Below are positions 44,241-52,566 of a stretch of 64,000 bases of DNA, piece by piece. The stretch is from the NCBI GenBank assembly GCA_963784645.1, contig CAWARY010000005.1, forward strand, positions 178,656-242,655. The letters run 5' to 3'. Each line of letters opens with the position of its first letter. Within the stretch, counting starts at the first letter, position 1. The stretch is from an uncultured Actinomycetota bacterium (GTDB lineage: Bacteria > Actinomycetota > Actinomycetes > JACCUZ01). Below the pieces are notes generated by a model that saw nothing but the letters and a program-made list of their open reading frames with translations, was not told the origin of the DNA and searched no databases. The translations under genes were made by a program, and so were the position numbers.

Positions 44241-45293
44241 TCAGCGCCCGGTGGTCGGGGGCGGGCTGCTCGACGACGTCCCGGCAGGGCTGGAGGTCGA
44301 CGTCGACGGGGTGGGGTCGGTCGGCGTGGGGGTGGTCGTCGTCTCGGCCGGAGTGGGTGCCGGCGTCGTCGTGGGCTCGGCGGTGGTCGCGGGCGCCGTC
44401 GGGCAGGCGAAGGTGACGTCCTGCTCCACCGTGCGCCCGGCCGTCGTCGTGACGTCCGTGGTGCGACCGCGGGCGCCCAGGACGGACGTGCCGACCGGCG
44501 CGCCCGCGATGCGGTAGCGGTCGCCCTCGCCCAGCCCGCTCAGCCTGACCGCGCTGGTGCGCTGGCCGTCGATCCACAGCCACAGCGGGAAACGGGCGTC
44601 CGGGCAGCTGACGTCGGTCCGGACCCGGCCCTGGACGACCGCTCCGGGCACCAGCGTGGTGACACGCGGCTTGGTGCCGCGCGTACAGCTGAGGTCGTCG
44701 ACGAACATGGGGGCCCAGACCCCGACCGCGGCCGGACCGAGGTTGGTGTTGACACGCCATGACGTGACGAGGACCGGGGCACCGGTGCACGGCACCCGGT
44801 AGGCGCCTGTGACGTCCGTCGTGGCCGCCAGCCGGGTCGGGAGGTAGCCCTTCGCGGTCTGCTCCCCGGTCCAGACGTAGAGGCCGGCCACCGGGGCACC
44901 GGACGGGTCGACGACGCGGCCACGGACGAACGTGGGCGCCACCCGCTCCGGAGGCGCGGTGACCGCGCTGCTCGTCACGGGCGCGGCGGTCTTGCGGCCT
45001 GCGGTCGACGGGACCACCGAAGCCTGCCGGGTCTCCGGTGCGGCGGTCGACGTGCTCACGGACGGTGAGGGCGAGCCGCCGCGGGCGACGTTGACGATCG
45101 TGTTGCGTACGCCGCTCACGCCGCCGCCCAGCGCGAGGCCGCCGAAGATGCCGGAGAGGAAGACACCGGTGACACCGCAGACAGCGGCCGCCCGGTGGAA
45201 CCGACGGAACGTGGCCTCGCGGTACACGCGGCCGAAGCCGTCGGGCGGCGGGGGCAGCGGCTCGATCGGGCGACGGGGCAGGTGCCCCGTCAT
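44241..45293 (-). CDS. Membrane-spanning anti-sigma factor-like protein with an extracytoplasmic domain and a Thr/Pro-rich tail
   Basis: 350 aa from the ATG, which overlaps the sigma-factor stop (ATGA). One TM helix after a cytoplasmic N-terminus. Confidence 0.55.
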   Translation of the reverse strand: MTGHLPRRPIEPLPPPPDGFGRVYREATFRRFHRAAAVCGVTGVFLSGIFGGLALGGGVSGVRNTIVNVARGGSPSPSVSTSTAAPETRQASVVPSTAGRKTAAPVTSSAVTAPPERVAPTFVRGRVVDPSGAPVAGLYVWTGEQTAKGYLPTRLAATTDVTGAYRVPCTGAPVLVTSWRVNTNLGPAAVGVWAPMFVDDLSCTRGTKPRVTTLVPGAVVQGRVRTDVSCPDARFPLWLWIDGQRTSAVRLSGLGEGDRYRIAGAPVGTSVLGARGRTTDVTTTAGRTVEQDVTFACPTAPATTAEPTTTPAPTPAETTTTPTPTDPTPSTSTSSPAGTSSSSPPPTTGR

Positions 45294-45808
45294 CGGACGT
45301 CCTCCAGCCAGCTCGCGAGCCGGCCGCGCGCGTCGAACAGCATGCGCTTGATCGTTCCTTCCGGCTTCCTCAGCGCCGTCGCGACCTCGGCGACGCTCAT
45401 GTCGGCGTAGTAGTGCAGCAGGACGGGCATCCGGAGCCGGTCGGGGAGCCGCTCGACCATGTCCCGCAGCCACGGGTCCGCGGCCGGCGTGCTCACCGGC
45501 GTGGTCTCCTCGAGCCGCGCCTGCAGCTTGCGGTCGCGCTGCTCGCGGCGCCAGCGGTCGCGCACCAGGTTGGTGGCCGTGACGTAGAGGTAGCCCTTGG
45601 GGTCGTGGACCGTGAGCCAGCGCGACAGCAGCCGGGTGAACGCTTCCGAGGCGATGTCGTGCGCGGCGTCCCGGTCGCCGACCAGGGAGGCGCACCAGCC
45701 GGCCAGCTGCCCGTAGTGCTCGTTCCACAACGCCCGGGCAGCGTCCTCCCGGGCGGTCACGGCAGCTGCCGCCACACCCTGGGTGCGGGAGGTCCCCGCG
45801 GTCACCAT
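45290..45808 (-). CDS. ECF (sigma-70 group 4) RNA polymerase sigma factor
   Basis: 172 aa with region 2 (DIASEAFTRLL) and region 4 (MSVAEVATALRKPEGTIKRML). Confidence 0.8.
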   Translation of the reverse strand: MVTAGTSRTQGVAAAAVTAREDAARALWNEHYGQLAGWCASLVGDRDAAHDIASEAFTRLLSRWLTVHDPKGYLYVTATNLVRDRWRREQRDRKLQARLEETTPVSTPAADPWLRDMVERLPDRLRMPVLLHYYADMSVAEVATALRKPEGTIKRMLFDARGRLASWLEDVR

Positions 45809-46075
45809 GACGGCCACGAACCGAGGACGCCGATCGGCGCCGGTCGGTTCACCCCGGTCACGACGACCACGCGGTCCCGCGTGGAGCCGACGTCCCCGTT
45901 CCCGGGGAGCCGGTCGCCCGTCTCCATCCGACCGAGGGTAGCGGGCCGGCCCGTCCGCACCCGGGTACGCTCGGTCACGATCCGGACATGACGGCGCCTC
46001 GGAACCGCGATGGCGTCGTGTCACACGCGGCCACCACCCCGGCCGTCACCGGTGACGAGTCGCGAGGAGCCGCAG

Positions 46076-47749
46076 GTGGACGCCGAGGAGATCCAGCAGG
46101 GTCGGGAGCGCTGGCAGCGTCGTTTCGACGCGGCACGGGTGCGGGAGGCGGACTTCTCCACGCTGTCCGGCGTCGAGGTCGACCCGGTCTACGGCCCGGC
46201 GCCCGGCGACACGGTCGAGGGCTTCGAGCGGATCGGCTGGCCGGGCGAGTTCCCGTTCACCCGCGGCCTGTATCCGACGGGCTACCGCGGGCGCACCTGG
46301 ACGATCCGGCAGTTCGCCGGGTTCGGCAACGCGGCGCAGACCAACGAGCGCTACAAGATGATCCTGGCCGCAGGCGGCGGGGGTCTCTCGGTGGCCTTCG
46401 ACATGCCGACGCTGATGGGCCGCGACTCCGACGACCCGAAGTCCCTGGGCGAGGTGGGGCACTGCGGGGTCGCGATCGACTCCGCCACCGACATGGGTGT
46501 GCTCTTCTCCGACATCCCGCTGGGTGACGTCACCACGTCGATGACGATCAGTGGTCCCGCGGTGCCGGTGTTCTGCATGTACCTCGTCGCCGCCGAGCGG
46601 CAGGGCGTCGACCTCAGCGTGCTCAACGGCACCCTGCAGACCGACATCTTCAAGGAGTACATCGCGCAGAAGGAGTGGCTCTTCCCGCCGGAGCCGCACC
46701 TGCGGCTGATCGGCGACCTCATGCAGTACTGCGTCGAGAACATCCCGGCGTACAAGCCGCTGTCGGTCTCCGGGTACCACATCCGCGAGGCCGGCTCGAC
46801 GGCCGCACAGGAGCTGGCGTTCACCCTCGCCGACGGCTTCGGCTACGTCGAGCTGGGCCTGTCGCGTGGCATGGACGTCGACGAGTTCGCACCGGGCCTG
46901 TCGTTCTTCTTCGACGCGCACCTGGACTTCTTCGAGGAGATCGCGAAGTTCCGCGCGGCCCGCCGGATCTGGGCCCGCTGGCTGCGCGACGAGTACGGCG
47001 CTACCACCGAGAAGGCGCAGTGGCTGCGCTTCCACACCCAGACCGCCGGGGTCTCGCTGACGGCGCAGCAGCCCGACAACAACATCGTCCGTACCGCCGT
47101 CGAGGCGCTGGCGGCGGTCCTGGGCGGCACCAACTCGCTGCACACCAACGCCCTCGACGAGGTGCTGGCGCTGCCGAGTGAGAAGGCCGCCGAGATCGCC
47201 CTGCGCACCCAGCAGGTCATCATGGAGGAGACCGGCGTCGTCAACGTCGCCGACCCGCTCGGCGGGTCCTGGTACGTCGAGGCGCTCACCGACCGCATCG
47301 AGGCCGAGGCCGAGGCGGTCTTCGCCCGCATCCGCGCGATGGGCACGGACGGCTCGATCACCTCGGGCCTGCTGCGCGGCATCGAGGACGGCTGGTTCAT
47401 GTCCGAGATCGCCGAGGCGGCCTTCGCCTACCAGACCGGGCTGGAGAAGGGCGAGAAGAAGGTCGTCGGGGTCAACGTGCACACCTCGACCGTCGAGGAG
47501 CCCTTGGAGATCCTCCGCGTCTCCCACGAGGTCGAGCGCGAGCAGAACCGTGTCCTCGGTGCCCGCCGGGCCGACCGCGACGAGGCCGCCGCTCGCGCCG
47601 CCGTCGCGCGGATGGCCGAGGTCGCCCGCACCGACGAGAACATGGTGCCTGCGATGCTCGACGCCGTCCGGGCCGAGGCGACCCTCGGTGAGATCTGCGA
47701 CGCCCTGCGCGCCGAGTGGGGCGACTACCGCGAGCCGCCACGCTTCTGA
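46076..47749 (+). CDS. Acyl-CoA mutase large (substrate-binding) subunit lacking a B12 domain (IcmA/HcmA-like)
   Basis: GTG start behind a GAGGAG ribosome-binding site, VDAEEIQQGRERWQRRFDAARVREADFSTLSGVEVDPVYGP... There is no C-terminal DxHxxG domain. Confidence 0.8.
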   Translation: MDAEEIQQGRERWQRRFDAARVREADFSTLSGVEVDPVYGPAPGDTVEGFERIGWPGEFPFTRGLYPTGYRGRTWTIRQFAGFGNAAQTNERYKMILAAGGGGLSVAFDMPTLMGRDSDDPKSLGEVGHCGVAIDSATDMGVLFSDIPLGDVTTSMTISGPAVPVFCMYLVAAERQGVDLSVLNGTLQTDIFKEYIAQKEWLFPPEPHLRLIGDLMQYCVENIPAYKPLSVSGYHIREAGSTAAQELAFTLADGFGYVELGLSRGMDVDEFAPGLSFFFDAHLDFFEEIAKFRAARRIWARWLRDEYGATTEKAQWLRFHTQTAGVSLTAQQPDNNIVRTAVEALAAVLGGTNSLHTNALDEVLALPSEKAAEIALRTQQVIMEETGVVNVADPLGGSWYVEALTDRIEAEAEAVFARIRAMGTDGSITSGLLRGIEDGWFMSEIAEAAFAYQTGLEKGEKKVVGVNVHTSTVEEPLEILRVSHEVEREQNRVLGARRADRDEAAARAAVARMAEVARTDENMVPAMLDAVRAEATLGEICDALRAEWGDYREPPRF

Positions 47750-47756
47750 GCACCGT

Positions 47757-47811
47757 GAGTGGCGCGTTGTGGTGGTTCTGTACCGGTAAGAAGTGCCACA
47801 ACGCGCCACTC
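47757..47811. terminator. Perfect 16-bp stem hairpin (GAGTGGCGCGTTGTGG / CCACAACGCGCCACTC) with a 23-nt AT-richer loop, 8 nt after the mutase stop
   Basis: Read directly. Confidence 0.55.
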
Positions 47812-47946
47812 GACGATCGGGACAGGTACGGGAGGCGGGCGGCTGTCACCTCTCCTCCGAAGCCGCTCTGAGCTGCACCGCGACGGCGGGCCAGGGGGCA
47901 GGGGCCGTGTCGGCGGCACACCCGAGCGTGGGGGAGGATGGTCGGC

Positions 47947-48879
47947 ATGTCGCAGTCCAGCTTCAACCCGTACGGCGCCGTCGACCTCTCCGCGCTCGCC
48001 CGGCCGGCCGGCGCCGCCCCGAGCGGCGCCGACGCGCCGCCAGCCGCCGGCGGGGTGGTCGTCGACGTCACCGAGGCCGACTTCCAGGCGGTGGTCCTCG
48101 AGCAGTCGTTGACCGTCCCGGTCGTCATCGACTTCTGGGCCGACTGGTGCGGGCCGTGCAAGCAGCTGAGCCCGATCCTGGAGCGCCTGGCCGCGGCCGA
48201 CGGCGGGACCTGGCTGCTCGCCAAGATCGACCTGGACGCCAACCCGCAGCTCGGGCAGGCGTTCCAGGTGCAGAGCATCCCGGCGGTCTTCGCAGTGGTG
48301 AAGGGGCAGCCCATCCCGCTGTTCCAGGGCGCGCTCCCCGAGGCGCAGGTGCGGGAGTACCTCGACGAGCTGCTGCGCGTCGCCGAGGCGAACGGCGTCA
48401 GCGGTCGCCTCTCGCTCGACGGTGCTGCTCCGCAGCAGGAGGCCCAGGAGGCACCCGAGCCGGAGTCCGACCCGCGCTATGACGAGGCGTACGACGCCAT
48501 CGAGCGCGGCGACCTCGAGGCCGCGGCCGAGGCCTACCGTGGCCTGCTGGCCGATGCCCCCGCCGACCCCGACGCCCGGGCGGGGCTGGGGCAGGTCGAG
48601 CTGCTGCGCCGGACCCAGGGTGTCGACGAGCGGGCCGCGCGCCGGACCGCTGCCGAGAGCCCCGACGACGTCGCGGCCCAGACCGCGGTCGCCGATCTCG
48701 ACCTCCTCGGCGGGCACGTCGAGGATGCCTTCACCCGCCTCGTCGACCTGGTCCGCCGGTCCTCCGGGGCCGACCGCGATGCCGCCCGGGATCACCTCGT
48801 GGGGCTCTTCGAGCTGGTGGGCAGCCAGGACGACCGGGTCGCCAAGGCCCGTACCGCGCTGGCCAACGCCTTGTTCTGA
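47947..48879 (+). CDS. Thioredoxin-domain protein with a C-terminal TPR-like domain (YbbN/CnoX-like co-chaperone)
   Basis: WADWCGPCK active site. ATG with a GGAGGA ribosome-binding site. Confidence 0.8.
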   Translation: MSQSSFNPYGAVDLSALARPAGAAPSGADAPPAAGGVVVDVTEADFQAVVLEQSLTVPVVIDFWADWCGPCKQLSPILERLAAADGGTWLLAKIDLDANPQLGQAFQVQSIPAVFAVVKGQPIPLFQGALPEAQVREYLDELLRVAEANGVSGRLSLDGAAPQQEAQEAPEPESDPRYDEAYDAIERGDLEAAAEAYRGLLADAPADPDARAGLGQVELLRRTQGVDERAARRTAAESPDDVAAQTAVADLDLLGGHVEDAFTRLVDLVRRSSGADRDAARDHLVGLFELVGSQDDRVAKARTALANALF

Positions 48880-48897
48880 CGCAGTCCGCCCCGGCAC

Positions 48898-48939
48898 GAC
48901 GAAGACCGCTCCGGCCGGAGGCGGCGAGAGCGGTCTTCG
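48898..48939. terminator. Hairpin (12-bp stem ACGAAGACCGCTC / GAGCGGTCTTCG) between the convergent trx gene and the small-peptide gene
   Basis: Read directly. Confidence 0.4.
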
Positions 48940-48972
48940 AGGTCGGGCGGGGACGCGCGAGGCGTCCGCTTC

Positions 48973-49044
48973 CTAGAACAGGAAGATGATCAGCAGGATC
49001 ACAGCGATGACGAGTGCGGCGATGGCGATGGTGCGGGTGTTCAT
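48973..49044 (-). CDS. Unannotated 23-aa hydrophobic peptide MNTRTIAIAALVIAVILLIIFLF
   Basis: A GGAG ribosome-binding site lies 6 nt upstream of the ATG. The codons are GC3-rich, typical of the host genome, and the peptide forms a single TM helix. It is too short to appear in the ORF track. Confidence 0.4.
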   Translation of the reverse strand: MNTRTIAIAALVIAVILLIIFLF

Positions 49045-49170
49045 CGGGGCTCCGTTTCGGTGTGGGGCAGGGGTGCTGGACCCCCTGTCTCCCGGGAACG
49101 TCGCGACAAACGTCCGACGGTCCATGTGCAGAGCCGCCATCGCTCCGTGTAGTGAGAGAGTCGCCTTCCG

Positions 49171-50268
49171 TCACGGGTGCGGAGAAGGTGCCCTGAGCCT
49201 CCGACCCCAGAGGTCGCTGTCGCCGTCCAGCACGCCGCGGACCACAAGCTGCCAGCCCAGCCGGGCATAGAGCCGCGGCGCCGGCCGGTCGCTGGCATAC
49301 GTCGAGAGCAGCGCGCGCTCGTGCGGAAGGTCGAGCAGCAGGGCCTCCATCAACGACCGCCCGAAGCCCCGACCCTGCGCTGCCGGGTCGACGGCGAGCT
49401 CGACCACCTCGAAGTGCCCGCCGAGCCACTCGTCGAGCACCGGGCGTGAGCCCTCCGGCGCCGTCTCCTTGAGCCGCTCGGTCCACCACATCCCGTGCTC
49501 ACCGGTGAAGCCGTAGCCGAAGCCGCGCACCACGCCCGCCTCGCGGACCAGCACCAGCCGGAACGCATCGCGTGTCGCGTGGAGCGGGAGCATGTCGGTG
49601 GCGAACCGCTCGACCTGCTCCTCGGTCTCGTCGTAGCCGGGGGCGGTGAAGGCGGCCCGGTACGCCGCCACCACCTCGTCGACGACCGCCACCGCGCCCG
49701 GCCTGTCGAGCGTCTCCAGGGCCGGCGGGTCGGCGGTGAGCTGGTACTCCCACCCCTCCTGCCAGGCGAACGGCGCGTCGACCGACGCCTCGAGGGGCCG
49801 CGCGGTCAGCAACTGGTCCAGCGCGAACCGGGTGGCGGCGTGCCCGACCAGCAGCACGCGCTCGCCGTCGTGGTCGCGGCGCAGCTCATCGAGCAGCTCG
49901 GCGACGCCGCGGACGACGTCTCGGTAGCTCTGCCCGCCCGGGTAGGGCTCGTTCACCCGGCTACGCCGCTGCGCGTGCACCACGTCGAGCGGGGCGCCGG
50001 TCAGGTCGCCGAAGTCGACCTCGCGCAGGCGGGCGTCGGTGCGCACCGGCGGGCCGTCGTCGCTGAACGCCACCTCGACGGTCCGCGCCGCGCGGTGCAG
50101 GTCGGACGTGACGACCAGGTCGATCCCGTCGTCCCGGCGCCGTCGGCCGAGGTCGCGGGCTTGCTCGACCCCGGCGGCAGACAGCTCGCCGGGCAGCCAG
50201 CCGGTGGCCCGGCCGGCCTCGTTGTCCACCGTGGTCGCGTGCGTCTCGTAGACGAGCCGGACAGTCAT
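49171..50268 (-). CDS. Fusion protein: histidine phosphatase (phosphoglycerate-mutase family) N-domain plus GNAT acetyltransferase C-domain
   Basis: The N-terminus LVYETHATTVDNEAGRATGW...LVVTSDLHRAARTV has the RHG-like core. The C-terminus ...ELAVDPAAQGRGFGRSLMEALL is a GNAT motif A. Confidence 0.7.
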   Translation of the reverse strand: MTVRLVYETHATTVDNEAGRATGWLPGELSAAGVEQARDLGRRRRDDGIDLVVTSDLHRAARTVEVAFSDDGPPVRTDARLREVDFGDLTGAPLDVVHAQRRSRVNEPYPGGQSYRDVVRGVAELLDELRRDHDGERVLLVGHAATRFALDQLLTARPLEASVDAPFAWQEGWEYQLTADPPALETLDRPGAVAVVDEVVAAYRAAFTAPGYDETEEQVERFATDMLPLHATRDAFRLVLVREAGVVRGFGYGFTGEHGMWWTERLKETAPEGSRPVLDEWLGGHFEVVELAVDPAAQGRGFGRSLMEALLLDLPHERALLSTYASDRPAPRLYARLGWQLVVRGVLDGDSDLWGRRLRAPSPHP

Positions 50269-50280
50269 GCAGAGCGTCGG

Positions 50281-52566
<2,286 letters not shown>

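What the first reader, a model, noticed from the sequence alone, without database searches (positions are those of the whole stretch)
48973..49044. Unannotated 23-codon hydrophobic peptide gene with a good ribosome-binding site
The minus-strand ORF ATGAACACCCGC...TTCTAG encodes MNTRTIAIAALVIAVILLIIFLF, a single TM helix with an N-terminal basic anchor. GGAG lies 6 nt upstream and the codon usage is host-like. It sits 126 bp downstream of the phosphatase-GNAT fusion gene and faces a hairpin shared with the convergent trx gene. Small membrane peptides of this type are often type-I toxins, KdpF- or AcrZ-like regulatory subunits, or sensor-kinase accessory peptides, and they are routinely missed in annotation.
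Basis: partly seen in the sequence, partly recalled or inferred. Interest (0 to 1): 0.55.

Follow-up and report, generated by a model that had tools for sequence, protein, structure and literature searches.

The report
Conserved 23-residue membrane peptide gene
This is a real, strongly conserved gene for a 23-amino-acid membrane-spanning peptide, present in hundreds of soil actinobacterial sequences but in no family database; its role is unknown and is most likely that of a small helper subunit of a larger membrane protein.

Summary
The ORF at 48973..49044 (-) exists exactly as described and is a genuine protein-coding gene. I recovered 59 distinct nucleotide copies and 110 distinct peptide variants. 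An exhaustive HMMER search gave 591 cluster representatives. Every copy has ATG or GTG at the same position and a stop after 23-24 codons. 55 of 59 have a GGAG-type Shine-Dalgarno. Substitutions fall mainly on third codon positions, and pN/pS is 0.24 against 1.6 and 3.5 in the shifted frames. Both flanks are unconserved. Gene callers report it as a 30-87 aa "hypothetical protein" by adding unrelated upstream sequence; the window's own copy is in the database as a 50-aa call. There is no match in Pfam, NCBIfam, Rfam, PDB, phages, plasmids or the literature. In the window's lineage the gene lies after glgB (with or without the phosphatase-GNAT gene), convergent with trx-TPR. It has its own conserved promoter-like block and a terminator hairpin. 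Elsewhere the neighbours are unrelated, so no partner gene can be inferred. Residues 1-15 (MNTRTIAIAALVIAV) are nearly invariant; the remainder is only hydrophobic. The best reading is a free-standing single-pass micro-protein that binds a larger membrane protein (inferred). KdpF membership is rejected and a type I toxin is disfavoured. It is a new member of a known kind, of moderate interest.

The parts
48973..49044 (-). Coding sequence of the 23-aa peptide MNTRTIAIAALVIAVILLIIFLF (ATG 49044..49042, TAG 48975..48973)
   Evidence: sequence; 59 distinct copies share the start position and have 23-24 codons; entropy by codon position is 6.7/2.3/16.4; pN/pS is 0.24 against 1.6 and 3.5 in the shifted frames; the match is always at the extreme C-terminus of database proteins.
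49050..49053 (-). Shine-Dalgarno GGAG, 5 nt before the ATG
   Evidence: 55/59 copies have GGAG/GAGG/AGGA at -16..-4; the GGAG-to-start spacing is 5 nt in 30 copies and 6-10 nt in 23; this stretch is unstructured in the presumed short transcript.
49087..49111 (-). Conserved promoter-like block GTTTGT-N13-GGAGAC (also readable as GTTT-N14-GGGAGA), 43-67 nt upstream of the ATG; sigma-factor type not established
   Evidence: alignment of 24 upstream regions; the only match in the 64-kb window, 0.05 expected. GTTT-N14-17-GGA[GC]A at -62..-77 in 31/65 copies, including all 25 with trx-TPR downstream; background 0.4%. Compared with published SigF/SigB-type consensus sequences.
48900..48939 (.). GC-rich hairpin (13 bp + 4 bp) between the peptide gene and the convergent trx-TPR gene; probable bidirectional terminator without a U-tract
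   Evidence: z = -3.1; 32 of 57 family copies have a downstream fold with z < -2 (mean z -2.4), usually a 10-16 bp GC stem within about 50 nt of the stop. The simple terminator scan, which requires a T-run, found nothing.
49045..49140 (-). Non-conserved in-frame upstream stretch that gene callers add to the ORF (50-aa form starts at 49125, 55-aa form at 49140); not part of the protein
   Evidence: the N-terminal extensions of 134 database proteins are unrelated in sequence and length; 7/59 copies have an in-frame stop within 10 codons upstream of the conserved start.

Best explanation
The ORF is a genuine, translated, chromosomal gene for a 23-residue single-pass membrane micro-protein. It belongs to an undescribed family that is widespread in soil Actinomycetota; the named relatives are Sporichthyaceae MAGs. 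Shown: the reading frame, start, SD and stop are conserved, and the sequence evolves under purifying selection at the protein level. The flanks are free to vary. Inferred from sequence: in the window's lineage the gene is a small transcription unit of its own, about 180 nt long. It would run from a conserved promoter-like block (49087..49111), through an unstructured leader of roughly 36 nt with an exposed GGAG, to a terminator hairpin (48900..48939) shared with trx-TPR. Also inferred: the peptide inserts with its invariant polar cap (M-N-T-R-T, one Arg) on the cytoplasmic side and about 19 hydrophobic residues spanning the membrane. Residues 1-15 are almost invariant on all helix sides, while residues 16-23 only need to be hydrophobic. 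The most likely mechanism is therefore that the cytoplasm-proximal two thirds of the helix packs tightly, surrounded on all sides, against a conserved larger membrane protein or into a homo-oligomer. It would then act as an accessory or regulatory subunit, in the way KdpF, AcrZ, MgtS, CydX or sarcolipin act. The partner is not encoded next to it and remains unknown.
For: The gene is real. 59 distinct nucleotide copies all start with ATG (52) or GTG (7) at the same codon and stop after 23-24 codons. Entropy summed by codon position is 6.68/2.32/16.41. Invariant T3, A10 and V12 each use all four synonymous codons. Both flanks have entropy of about 1.7-1.9 bits, apart from the SD. pN/pS is 0.24 in frame (0.40 for codons 12-18, which were in no search pattern), against 1.6 and 3.5 in the shifted frames. 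The only consistently open antisense frame has no conserved boundaries. The short form is the product: the extensions are unrelated and in-frame stops lie just upstream in 7 copies. Family size: 335 proteins by profile search and 591 cluster representatives at E<=1e-3 by exhaustive HMMER, always matching at the C-terminal end. Own transcription unit: the promoter-like block is conserved in 31/65 copies against a 0.4% background. Other lineages have different -10-like hexamers. Downstream hairpins are common across the family. The leader is unstructured. The gene is free-standing: it occurs after glgB, after His_Phos-GNAT, next to thrS, galE, rsmD/recG, sodA and PAP2, with a near-identical peptide each time. 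Constraint pattern: M1, T3, R4, I6, A7, A10 and L11 are invariant and T5, I8, V12, I13, A14 and V15 are at least 90% conserved in 110 distinct cores. General precedent: the small membrane proteins that have been studied well act as regulators of larger membrane proteins (abstract of PMC11539335).
Against: There is no direct evidence of translation or membrane insertion. No partner gene co-localises in any context, so the 'accessory subunit' step is inference from the conservation pattern and from analogy. My specific prediction of a single conserved helix face (T3/A7/A10/A14) failed: the conservation moment was 0.13 and 1057 of 5000 permutations did as well. No similar chain exists among solved structures, including actinobacterial membrane complexes (best hit was the Vpu TM at E=6). 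The gene is missing from the same intergenic gap in a close relative (L003) and from 76 of 80 trx-TPR loci within +/-4 kb, so it is not fixed at this position and may be dispensable. Part of the apparent invariance is ascertainment: the searches required shared 5-residue words or the pattern TRTIAI[AL]AL. Within the glgB lineage the peptide (68-95% identity) is no more conserved than GlgB or trx-TPR. The promoter assignment rests on sequence alone. The -10 differs from the SigB/SigF consensus at a nearly invariant position, and co-transcription with the upstream gene is not excluded because no hairpin separates them.
Confidence: 0.55

Rival explanations
1. Type I toxin-like peptide. A small hydrophobic peptide damages or depolarises the membrane when made, and is normally held in check by an antisense RNA or by mRNA structure.
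For: The size and composition fit, being comparable in length and hydrophobicity to known type I toxins of 18-30 aa (own knowledge). It is a free-standing mini-gene in intergenic gaps between convergent genes. One contig carries two tandem copies (L115). Presence at a given locus is variable. In a read-through transcript from the upstream gene, the predicted fold pairs the SD region with upstream sequence (z = -2.0, not tested for conservation).
Against: No conserved sequence accompanies the ORF on either side across contexts, so no conserved antitoxin RNA is evident, and there is no Rfam match. In the transcript expected from its own promoter, the SD and start are unpaired. The 15 N-terminal residues are almost invariant across unrelated genomic contexts, which is not expected for a generic membrane-damaging helix. 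There is one copy in 64 kb. It is absent from viral contigs, phages and plasmids.
Confidence: 0.12
2. Last gene of the alpha-glucan operon (glgE-treS-mak-glgB-phosphatase/GNAT-peptide), functionally tied to that pathway. For example, it could be a membrane tether or regulator for the phosphatase-GNAT enzyme or for glucan handling at the membrane.
For: The peptide lies on the same strand directly after glgB or after the His_Phos-GNAT gene in at least 16 copies, including long MAG contigs. No terminator-like hairpin lies between the GNAT gene and the peptide in the window. Two database proteins (P0136, P0138) are GNAT C-terminal halves read through in frame into the peptide. In M. smegmatis, treS/mak are reported with SigF-type promoters (PMC4694148), and the block here resembles that type.
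Against: Near-identical peptides sit in contexts with no glg genes: thrS, galE, rsmD/recG, sodA. The His_Phos-GNAT gene is often absent between glgB and the peptide (L002, L004, L085). L003 has glgB-GNAT-trx without the peptide. A conserved promoter-like block lies between the upstream gene and the peptide. The two fusions are 2 of 591 and can arise by chance: one frame in three, with few stops in high-GC DNA.
Confidence: 0.1
3. The real product is the longer 50-55 aa protein called by annotation pipelines, with a soluble N-terminal part and a C-terminal anchor.
For: The frame is open to 49140, with ATG codons at 49140 and 49125. A 50-aa call exists in NCBI/ENA. Within the glgB lineage the translated extension shows a recurring 'TF..A.PGDR' motif.
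Against: That motif is the translated image of the conserved promoter-like DNA block. Extensions differ completely in length and sequence between lineages. In-frame stops lie 2-9 codons upstream of the conserved start in 7 copies. The SD sits in front of the short start in 55/59 copies.
Confidence: 0.03
4. Not a protein gene: either a chance ORF inside a conserved RNA or DNA element, or a leader peptide that regulates a downstream gene.
For: It is very short, there is no experimental evidence, and hydrophobic leader peptides rich in Ile/Leu/Val/Thr do exist (own knowledge).
Against: Variation is concentrated at synonymous sites and conservation stops exactly at the start and stop codons. There is no Rfam hit. 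The next gene downstream is convergent, and a terminator hairpin follows the ORF directly, so there is nothing to attenuate.
Confidence: 0.02

Closest known systems
KdpF (about 29-aa subunit of the KdpFABC K+ pump; Pfam PF09604)
   Same: A single hydrophobic helix of under 30 aa that is often missed in annotation. It works by packing against a large membrane protein. Mycobacterial KdpF has a loosely similar 'LVIAV' stretch (recalled from memory, not tested).
   Different: There is no Pfam match even at E<=10. It is never next to kdpABC in any of more than 60 contexts. It lacks KdpF's polar C-terminal tail (own knowledge). Not a member.
AcrZ, MgtS, MgtR and CydX: enterobacterial small membrane proteins that bind pumps, transporters or oxidases
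   Same: The general mode proposed here: a free-standing or operon-end gene for one transmembrane helix that modulates a bigger membrane protein. The well-studied small membrane proteins act as regulators (abstract of PMC11539335).
   Different: There is no sequence relation. They come from different phyla. Those proteins are 30-49 aa with polar tails, whereas this one is almost pure helix with a 5-residue cap. No partner is known.
Sarcolipin / phospholamban-type micropeptide regulators of P-type ATPases
   Same: A short polar N-terminal cap containing Thr and Arg ahead of a single helix (sarcolipin begins MGINTRE, from my own knowledge). This suggests a possible regulatory phospho-site at T3 or T5.
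   Different: Those are eukaryotic. There is no detectable homology (PDB profile search). The resemblance is recalled from memory and is only a lead.
SafA, a conserved small transmembrane protein of Actinobacteria that protects the housekeeping sortase (PMC9282373, seen)
   Same: An actinobacterial precedent for a conserved small transmembrane protein acting through direct contact with a membrane enzyme.
   Different: SafA is genetically linked to its partner srtA and acts through an FPW motif (abstract). The peptide here has no linked partner and no such motif.
Type I toxins (for example Ibs, about 19 aa, and TisB, 29 aa, of E. coli)
   Same: Very short, very hydrophobic, free-standing genes in intergenic regions, sometimes in tandem copies (own knowledge; tandem copies on L115).
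   Different: No conserved antisense or flanking RNA element. The SD is exposed. The N-terminal two thirds are nearly invariant across contexts. It is not on mobile elements.

Membership tests
Small single-pass membrane proteins (generic kind) | Short ORF (50 aa or fewer) with conserved start, ribosome-binding site and stop | tested here: met
   59/59 copies share the start position, 55/59 have an SD, and all have 23-24 codons.
Small single-pass membrane proteins (generic kind) | Purifying selection on the encoded amino acids | tested here: met
   (entropy 6.7/2.3/16.4 by codon position). (pN/pS 0.24 in frame, 1.6 and 3.5 out of frame).
Small single-pass membrane proteins (generic kind) | One hydrophobic stretch long enough to span a bilayer, with a flanking positive charge | tested here: met
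   Read directly from the sequence: R4 followed by 19 uncharged hydrophobic residues; the composition of 110 cores is I, L, V, A, T, R, F, N with almost no G or P.
Small single-pass membrane proteins (generic kind) | Peptide is made and sits in the membrane | not testable with these tools
   Needs Ribo-seq, proteomics or tagged expression.
KdpF (PF09604) | Match to the family profile | tested here: not met
   only DUF131 (E=0.31) and Synaptobrevin (E=2.6) appear at E<=10, with no KdpF; nothing in NCBIfam.
KdpF (PF09604) | Encoded directly upstream of kdpA-kdpB-kdpC | tested here: not met
   the neighbours are glgB, His_Phos-GNAT, trx-TPR, thrS, galE, recG, sodA and others, never kdp.
Type I toxin-antitoxin | Small hydrophobic toxin peptide | tested here: met
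Type I toxin-antitoxin | Conserved antisense/antitoxin RNA overlapping or adjacent to the toxin gene | tested here: inconclusive
   The flanks are unconserved across contexts and there is no Rfam hit. An antisense RNA confined to the ORF itself cannot be excluded from sequence.
Type I toxin-antitoxin | Translation start sequestered in mRNA structure | tested here: not met
   the 53-nt leader plus start folds at -5.9 kcal/mol, z = +0.9, with the SD unpaired. In a hypothetical read-through transcript the SD region is paired, but this was not tested for conservation.
Type I toxin-antitoxin | Toxicity on overexpression | not testable with these tools
   Experiment needed.
SigB/SigF-type (group 3 stress sigma) promoter | -35 element GTTT | tested here: met
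   cGTTTG is invariant in 31 copies. Published consensus forms: GTTT-N14-19-GGGTA (PMC4694148) and GTTTGC-N14-GGGTAC-type (PMC8346170).
SigB/SigF-type (group 3 stress sigma) promoter | Spacing of 12-15 nt between the hexamers (N14-19 in the 4-mer/5-mer notation) | tested here: met
   GTTT-N14/15-GGGAGA, i.e. GTTTGN-N13/14-GGAGAC.
SigB/SigF-type (group 3 stress sigma) promoter | -10 element GGG(T/A)A(T/A), with G1-G3 and A5 nearly invariant | tested here: inconclusive
   Neither register fits fully. GGGAGA has G at position 5. GGA(G/C)A(C/T) keeps G1, G2 and A5 but has A at position 3.
SigB/SigF-type (group 3 stress sigma) promoter | Transcription depends on that sigma factor; same motif upstream of other regulon genes | tested here: not met
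   Sigma-factor dependence itself cannot be tested with these tools. For the regulon part, one search shows the motif occurs only once in the 64-kb window, so the window gives no support for a regulon.
Leader peptide / attenuator | Followed on the same strand by the regulated gene(s) | tested here: not met
   a terminator hairpin follows, and the next gene is convergent in most contexts.

The most novel reading that the evidence does not exclude
The peptide is a stress-sigma-controlled micropeptide regulator, an actinobacterial counterpart of sarcolipin or KdpF. Its invariant cytoplasmic cap (N-T-R-T) would be a Ser/Thr-kinase target, and its all-round conserved helix would plug into a conserved transporter or respiratory complex of soil Actinomycetota. 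A variant reading is that it tethers the neighbouring phosphatase-GNAT enzyme of the alpha-glucan cluster to the membrane, as the two read-through fusions hint.
Probability: 0.1. Interest if true: 0.65.

Novelty: new member of a known kind. Interest (0 to 1): 0.4.

Why it matters
Small membrane proteins are systematically lost or mis-started in annotation, especially in high-GC genomes, where spurious upstream extensions are easy to make. This case shows a large family with no Pfam, NCBIfam, PDB or literature record (591 cluster representatives and 110 distinct sequence variants). Its true 23-24-aa product is hidden inside 30-195-aa 'hypothetical proteins'. A profile built from the 23-aa core would correct hundreds of gene calls. 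The near-invariance of residues 1-15 across unrelated genomic contexts marks the family as a good candidate for finding a new accessory subunit of a conserved actinobacterial membrane machine. The finding does not bear on any long-standing open question.

Tried and rejected
1. Family libraries. Pfam and NCBIfam at E<=10 gave only chance hits for both the 23-aa and 55-aa forms.

2. Rfam at E<=1 over 47500..50500 gave only two chance hits: mir-339 (E=0.16) and DUF3800-IV (E=0.68).

3. The simple sigma-70 and terminator scan found nothing. It requires a T-run that actinobacterial hairpins often lack.

4. Looking for the peptide next to trx-TPR orthologues in 80 species found only 4 positives.

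5. The look-up of the window's own record through P0001 found nothing on record.

6. A PDB profile search gave no relative.

7. My first promoter regex (GG.A..) was too strict, matching 13/56. It was revised after inspecting the alignment.

8. The hypothesis of one conserved small-residue helix face (T3/A7/A10/A14) was rejected: p is about 0.21.

9. The antisense shadow ORF was rejected as a coding alternative because its boundaries are not conserved.

10. A phage, plasmid or viral origin was not supported, with the caveat that BLAST's low-complexity filter may mask the query.

11. A search for domain fusions among the long hits found only two GNAT read-throughs and otherwise no domains.

12. 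A full-text search for fragments of the peptide sequence returned no paper.

It was repeated with P0001 as the first row.

Full report
**Observation**

The minus-strand ORF at 48973..49044 encodes MNTRTIAIAALVIAVILLIIFLF, as reported. GGAG lies at 49053..49050, five bases before the ATG. The upstream His_Phos_1+GNAT gene (49171..50268) ends 126 nt away, and its domains are confirmed by Pfam. The convergent thioredoxin-TPR gene (47938..48879; Thioredoxin + TPR_20) ends 93 nt beyond the peptide's stop. A 13+4 bp GC-rich hairpin at 48900..48939 lies between the two genes (z = -3.1). A short ORF means little in itself here, because 48 ORFs of at least 20 aa overlap this 5-kb stretch. The verdict therefore rests on comparison with other genomes.

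**It is a real protein-coding gene**

- A word-seeded search of 5.8 billion proteins with the longest in-frame form (55 aa) returned 34 proteins. All of them end in M[NST]TRTIAIAALVIAVILL plus a few hydrophobic residues, and their N-terminal parts are unrelated.
- A profile search raised this to 335 proteins.
- An exhaustive HMMER search of 1.84 billion cluster representatives gave 591 hits at E<=1e-3 and 112 at E<=1e-10. In all 150 hits listed, the match lies at the extreme C-terminus.
- In all 134 proteins I inspected, the conserved core is the last 23 aa (76 proteins) or 24 aa (53 proteins).
- From genome MAGs, contig look-ups and a metagenome scan I collected 59 distinct nucleotide copies.
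- Every copy has ATG (52) or GTG (7) at the same codon and stops after 23-24 codons. 55 of 59 have GGAG, GAGG or AGGA at -16..-4.
- Over codons 1-18, column entropy summed by codon position is 6.68, 2.32 and 16.41 bits.
- The invariant residues T3, A10 and V12 each use all four synonymous codons.
- The 25 nt upstream (apart from the SD) and the 40 nt downstream are essentially random, at 1.6-1.9 bits per column.
- Pooled pN/pS is 0.24 in the annotated frame, against 1.6 and 3.5 in the two shifted frames. For codons 12-18, which were in no search pattern, it is 0.40.
- The one antisense frame that stays open is the acidic mirror image of hydrophobic codons, and it has no conserved boundaries.

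An RNA element, a chance ORF and an antisense gene are therefore excluded for practical purposes.

One caveat applies. The searches needed shared 5-residue words or the pattern TRTIAI[AL]AL, so the apparent invariance of residues 3-11 is partly ascertainment.

**The product is the 23-aa form**

- The window has in-frame ATGs at 49125 and 49140.
- The collection holds a 50-aa NCBI/ENA protein identical to 48973..49125 (P0001). 'Unannotated' is thus only partly true: a pipeline called the ORF from the wrong start.
- I could not retrieve the source record itself.
- The extensions differ completely in length (6-170 residues) and in sequence between family members.
- Seven copies have an in-frame stop 2-9 codons upstream of the conserved start.
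- The recurring 'TF..A.PGDR' in some extensions is the translated image of a conserved DNA block, described below.

**Genomic setting**

The window carries an alpha-glucan cluster on the minus strand, running glgE, treS, maltokinase, glgB, His_Phos-GNAT and then the peptide. A glgP gene and a glgX-like gene lie beyond it. On the other side are trx-TPR, a methylmalonyl-CoA-mutase-family gene and an ECF sigma factor.

The arrangement glgB-(His_Phos-GNAT)-peptide, convergent with trx-TPR-mutase, recurs widely:
- 19 copies have trx-TPR convergent downstream, usually within about 100 nt (1.9-2.7 kb away in L001 and L005).
- 16 copies have glgB upstream.
- 9 copies have the phosphatase-GNAT gene directly upstream.
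- These include contigs of 0.7-3.8 Mb.

In these loci the peptide is 68-95% identical to the window's copy. That is similar to trx-TPR (69-86%) and GlgB (74-90%), so these hosts are fairly close relatives. The named ones are Sporichthyaceae MAGs.

The gene is not tied to this place:
- A close relative with the same gene order has no trace of it in the gap (L003).
- 76 of 80 trx-TPR loci from other Actinomycetota lack it within 4 kb.
- Near-identical peptides occur beside thrS, a galE-like epimerase, rsmD/recG-like genes, a Fe/Mn superoxide dismutase, a PAP2 gene, a lytic-transglycosylase-like gene and permeases.
- No gene travels with it.
- It was not found in viral contigs, phage genomes or plasmids. 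BLAST's low-complexity filter may hide such a query.
- The window has a single copy. One metagenome contig has two tandem copies (L115).

**Transcription signals (inferred)**

- In the window's lineage the upstream regions align poorly, except for a block cGTTTG-N12/13-(G/A)GGAGA(C/T)A at -62 to -77, a C-rich stretch, and the SD.
- The pattern GTTT-N14-17-GGA[GC]A is present at that distance in 31 of 65 copies, including all 25 with trx-TPR downstream. Only 0.4% of random 130-nt segments have it.
- In the window it occurs only once, at 49088..49111, where 0.05 matches are expected by chance.
- Other lineages have different upstream hexamers, such as cAGACT, AAGACT, TAGGGT and TTGGAC-N18-TAGAGG. 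Each lineage therefore seems to have its own promoter, and no regulatory element is shared.
- The block resembles the published SigF consensus of M. smegmatis, GTTT-N14-19-GGGTA (PMC4694148). It also resembles S. coelicolor SigB-homologue promoters such as GTTTGC-N14-GGGTAC (PMC8346170).
- However, it departs from the consensus at one of the nearly invariant -10 positions in either register. I treat the sigma assignment as a lead, not a finding.
- The presumed leader is unstructured, with the SD free (z = +0.9).
- Most copies are followed by a strong GC hairpin (mean z -2.4, and 32/57 below -2).
- No hairpin separates the peptide from the upstream gene in the window, so some read-through transcription is possible. 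In that longer RNA the predicted fold pairs the SD region (conservation not tested).

**What the peptide looks like**

- Among 110 distinct cores, M1, T3, R4, I6, A7, A10 and L11 never vary.
- T5, I8, V12, I13, A14 and V15 are at least 90% conserved.
- Position 9 is A or L. Positions 16-23 vary among I, L, V and F. One fifth of variants end in Arg.
- Gly and Pro are almost absent, and there is no acidic residue except Asp at position 2 in some variants.
- I expected one conserved face of small residues (T3, A7, A10, A14), but the test failed: the conservation moment was 0.13 and 1057 of 5000 permutations did as well.
- The pattern is instead a gradient. The cap and the first two thirds of the helix are constrained on all sides, and the last third needs only to be hydrophobic.
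- By the positive-inside rule (established knowledge), the cap with R4 faces the cytoplasm.

**Mechanism**

What is shown is a conserved, selected coding sequence with translation signals. What is inferred is that the peptide spans the membrane and that its cytoplasm-proximal part is fully enclosed by protein contacts. Those contacts would be either a larger partner or copies of itself. It would then work like the known accessory micro-subunits KdpF, AcrZ, MgtS, CydX, sarcolipin and, among Actinobacteria, SafA. I give this reading about 0.55.

The rivals rank as follows:
- **Type I toxin, 0.12.** The size and free-standing layout fit. Against it are the lack of any conserved companion RNA, the exposed SD, the strict sequence conservation and the absence from mobile elements.
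- **Pathway-specific role at the end of the glg operon, 0.10.** Synteny, two GNAT-peptide read-through fusions and the lack of an intervening terminator fit. Against it are the many glg-free contexts, the intervening promoter-like block and L003.
- **The longer 50-55 aa protein, 0.03.**
- **A non-coding or leader-peptide reading, 0.02.**

**Comparison with known families**

There is no match in Pfam, NCBIfam, Rfam or the PDB, and no paper in the library contains the sequence. KdpF membership fails on both testable criteria. The family is best filed as a new, undescribed member of the known kind 'small single-pass bacterial membrane proteins'.

**Verdict**

- The specific functional suggestions are unsupported or disfavoured.
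- Interest is moderate at 0.4. It is a solid and sizeable new small-protein family and a clear annotation lesson for high-GC genomes. It has no known partner, no phenotype and no link to an open question.

Noticed in passing
L115:19-93 and L115:135-206 (metagenome contig JGI12272J11983_1024480): Two tandem copies of the peptide gene lie about 45 nt apart (MDTRTIAIAALVIAVILVLVIFVI, then VDTRTIAVAALVIVVILVIVFVI), each with its own GGAGGA. This is the only multi-copy case seen.
   Followed up: no
P0136 (161 aa) and P0138 (179 aa), database proteins: The C-terminal GNAT half of the upstream phosphatase-GNAT gene is read through in frame, across the promoter-like block, into the peptide. This could be an assembly or ORF-calling artefact, or a rare real fusion hinting at a functional link.
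   Followed up: partly
L003:4928-5076: A close relative with the same glgB, His_Phos-GNAT, trx-TPR order has a 150-nt gap with no trace of the peptide gene. Presence at this position is therefore variable within the lineage.
   Followed up: partly
window 49171..50268 (-): The histidine-phosphatase + GNAT fusion gene is inserted between glgB and the peptide in only some relatives: 9 copies have it, while L002, L004 and L085 lack it. It is the most divergent gene of the block (53-82% identity, against 74-90% for GlgB).
   Followed up: no
window 45290..46045 (-); also L142-L144 and L147: An ECF-type sigma factor gene (Sigma70_r2 + r4_2), followed in relatives by a domain-less gene of about 350 aa (possibly an anti-sigma factor), is conserved next to the mutase/trx-TPR pair.
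   Followed up: no
Upstream of the start codon in L002, L085, L088, L090, L095, L096 and others (not in the window): The SD is embedded in a perfect 14-nt palindrome, ATCGGAGCTCCGAT, that ends in the first two bases of the start codon. It could be a small SD-masking hairpin or a protein-binding site. The window has CGGAGCCCCG instead.
   Followed up: no
window 49045..49140 (-): In a hypothetical read-through transcript from the upstream gene, the predicted fold pairs GGCGGCUCUG (about 49125-49134) with the SD region CGGAGCCCCG (z = -2.0). Translation might therefore depend on which promoter is used. Conservation of this pairing was not tested.
   Followed up: no
window 49068..49156 (+): A weak Rfam hit to the animal mir-339 precursor (26 bits against a 60-bit gathering score, E = 0.16). 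It is a chance match to local hairpin potential.
   Followed up: yes
L146:5288-5914: In one 138-kb metagenome contig the peptide gene lies 155 nt upstream of, and on the same strand as, a Fe/Mn superoxide dismutase gene. Together with the thioredoxin neighbour elsewhere, this is a faint oxidative-stress theme.
   Followed up: no
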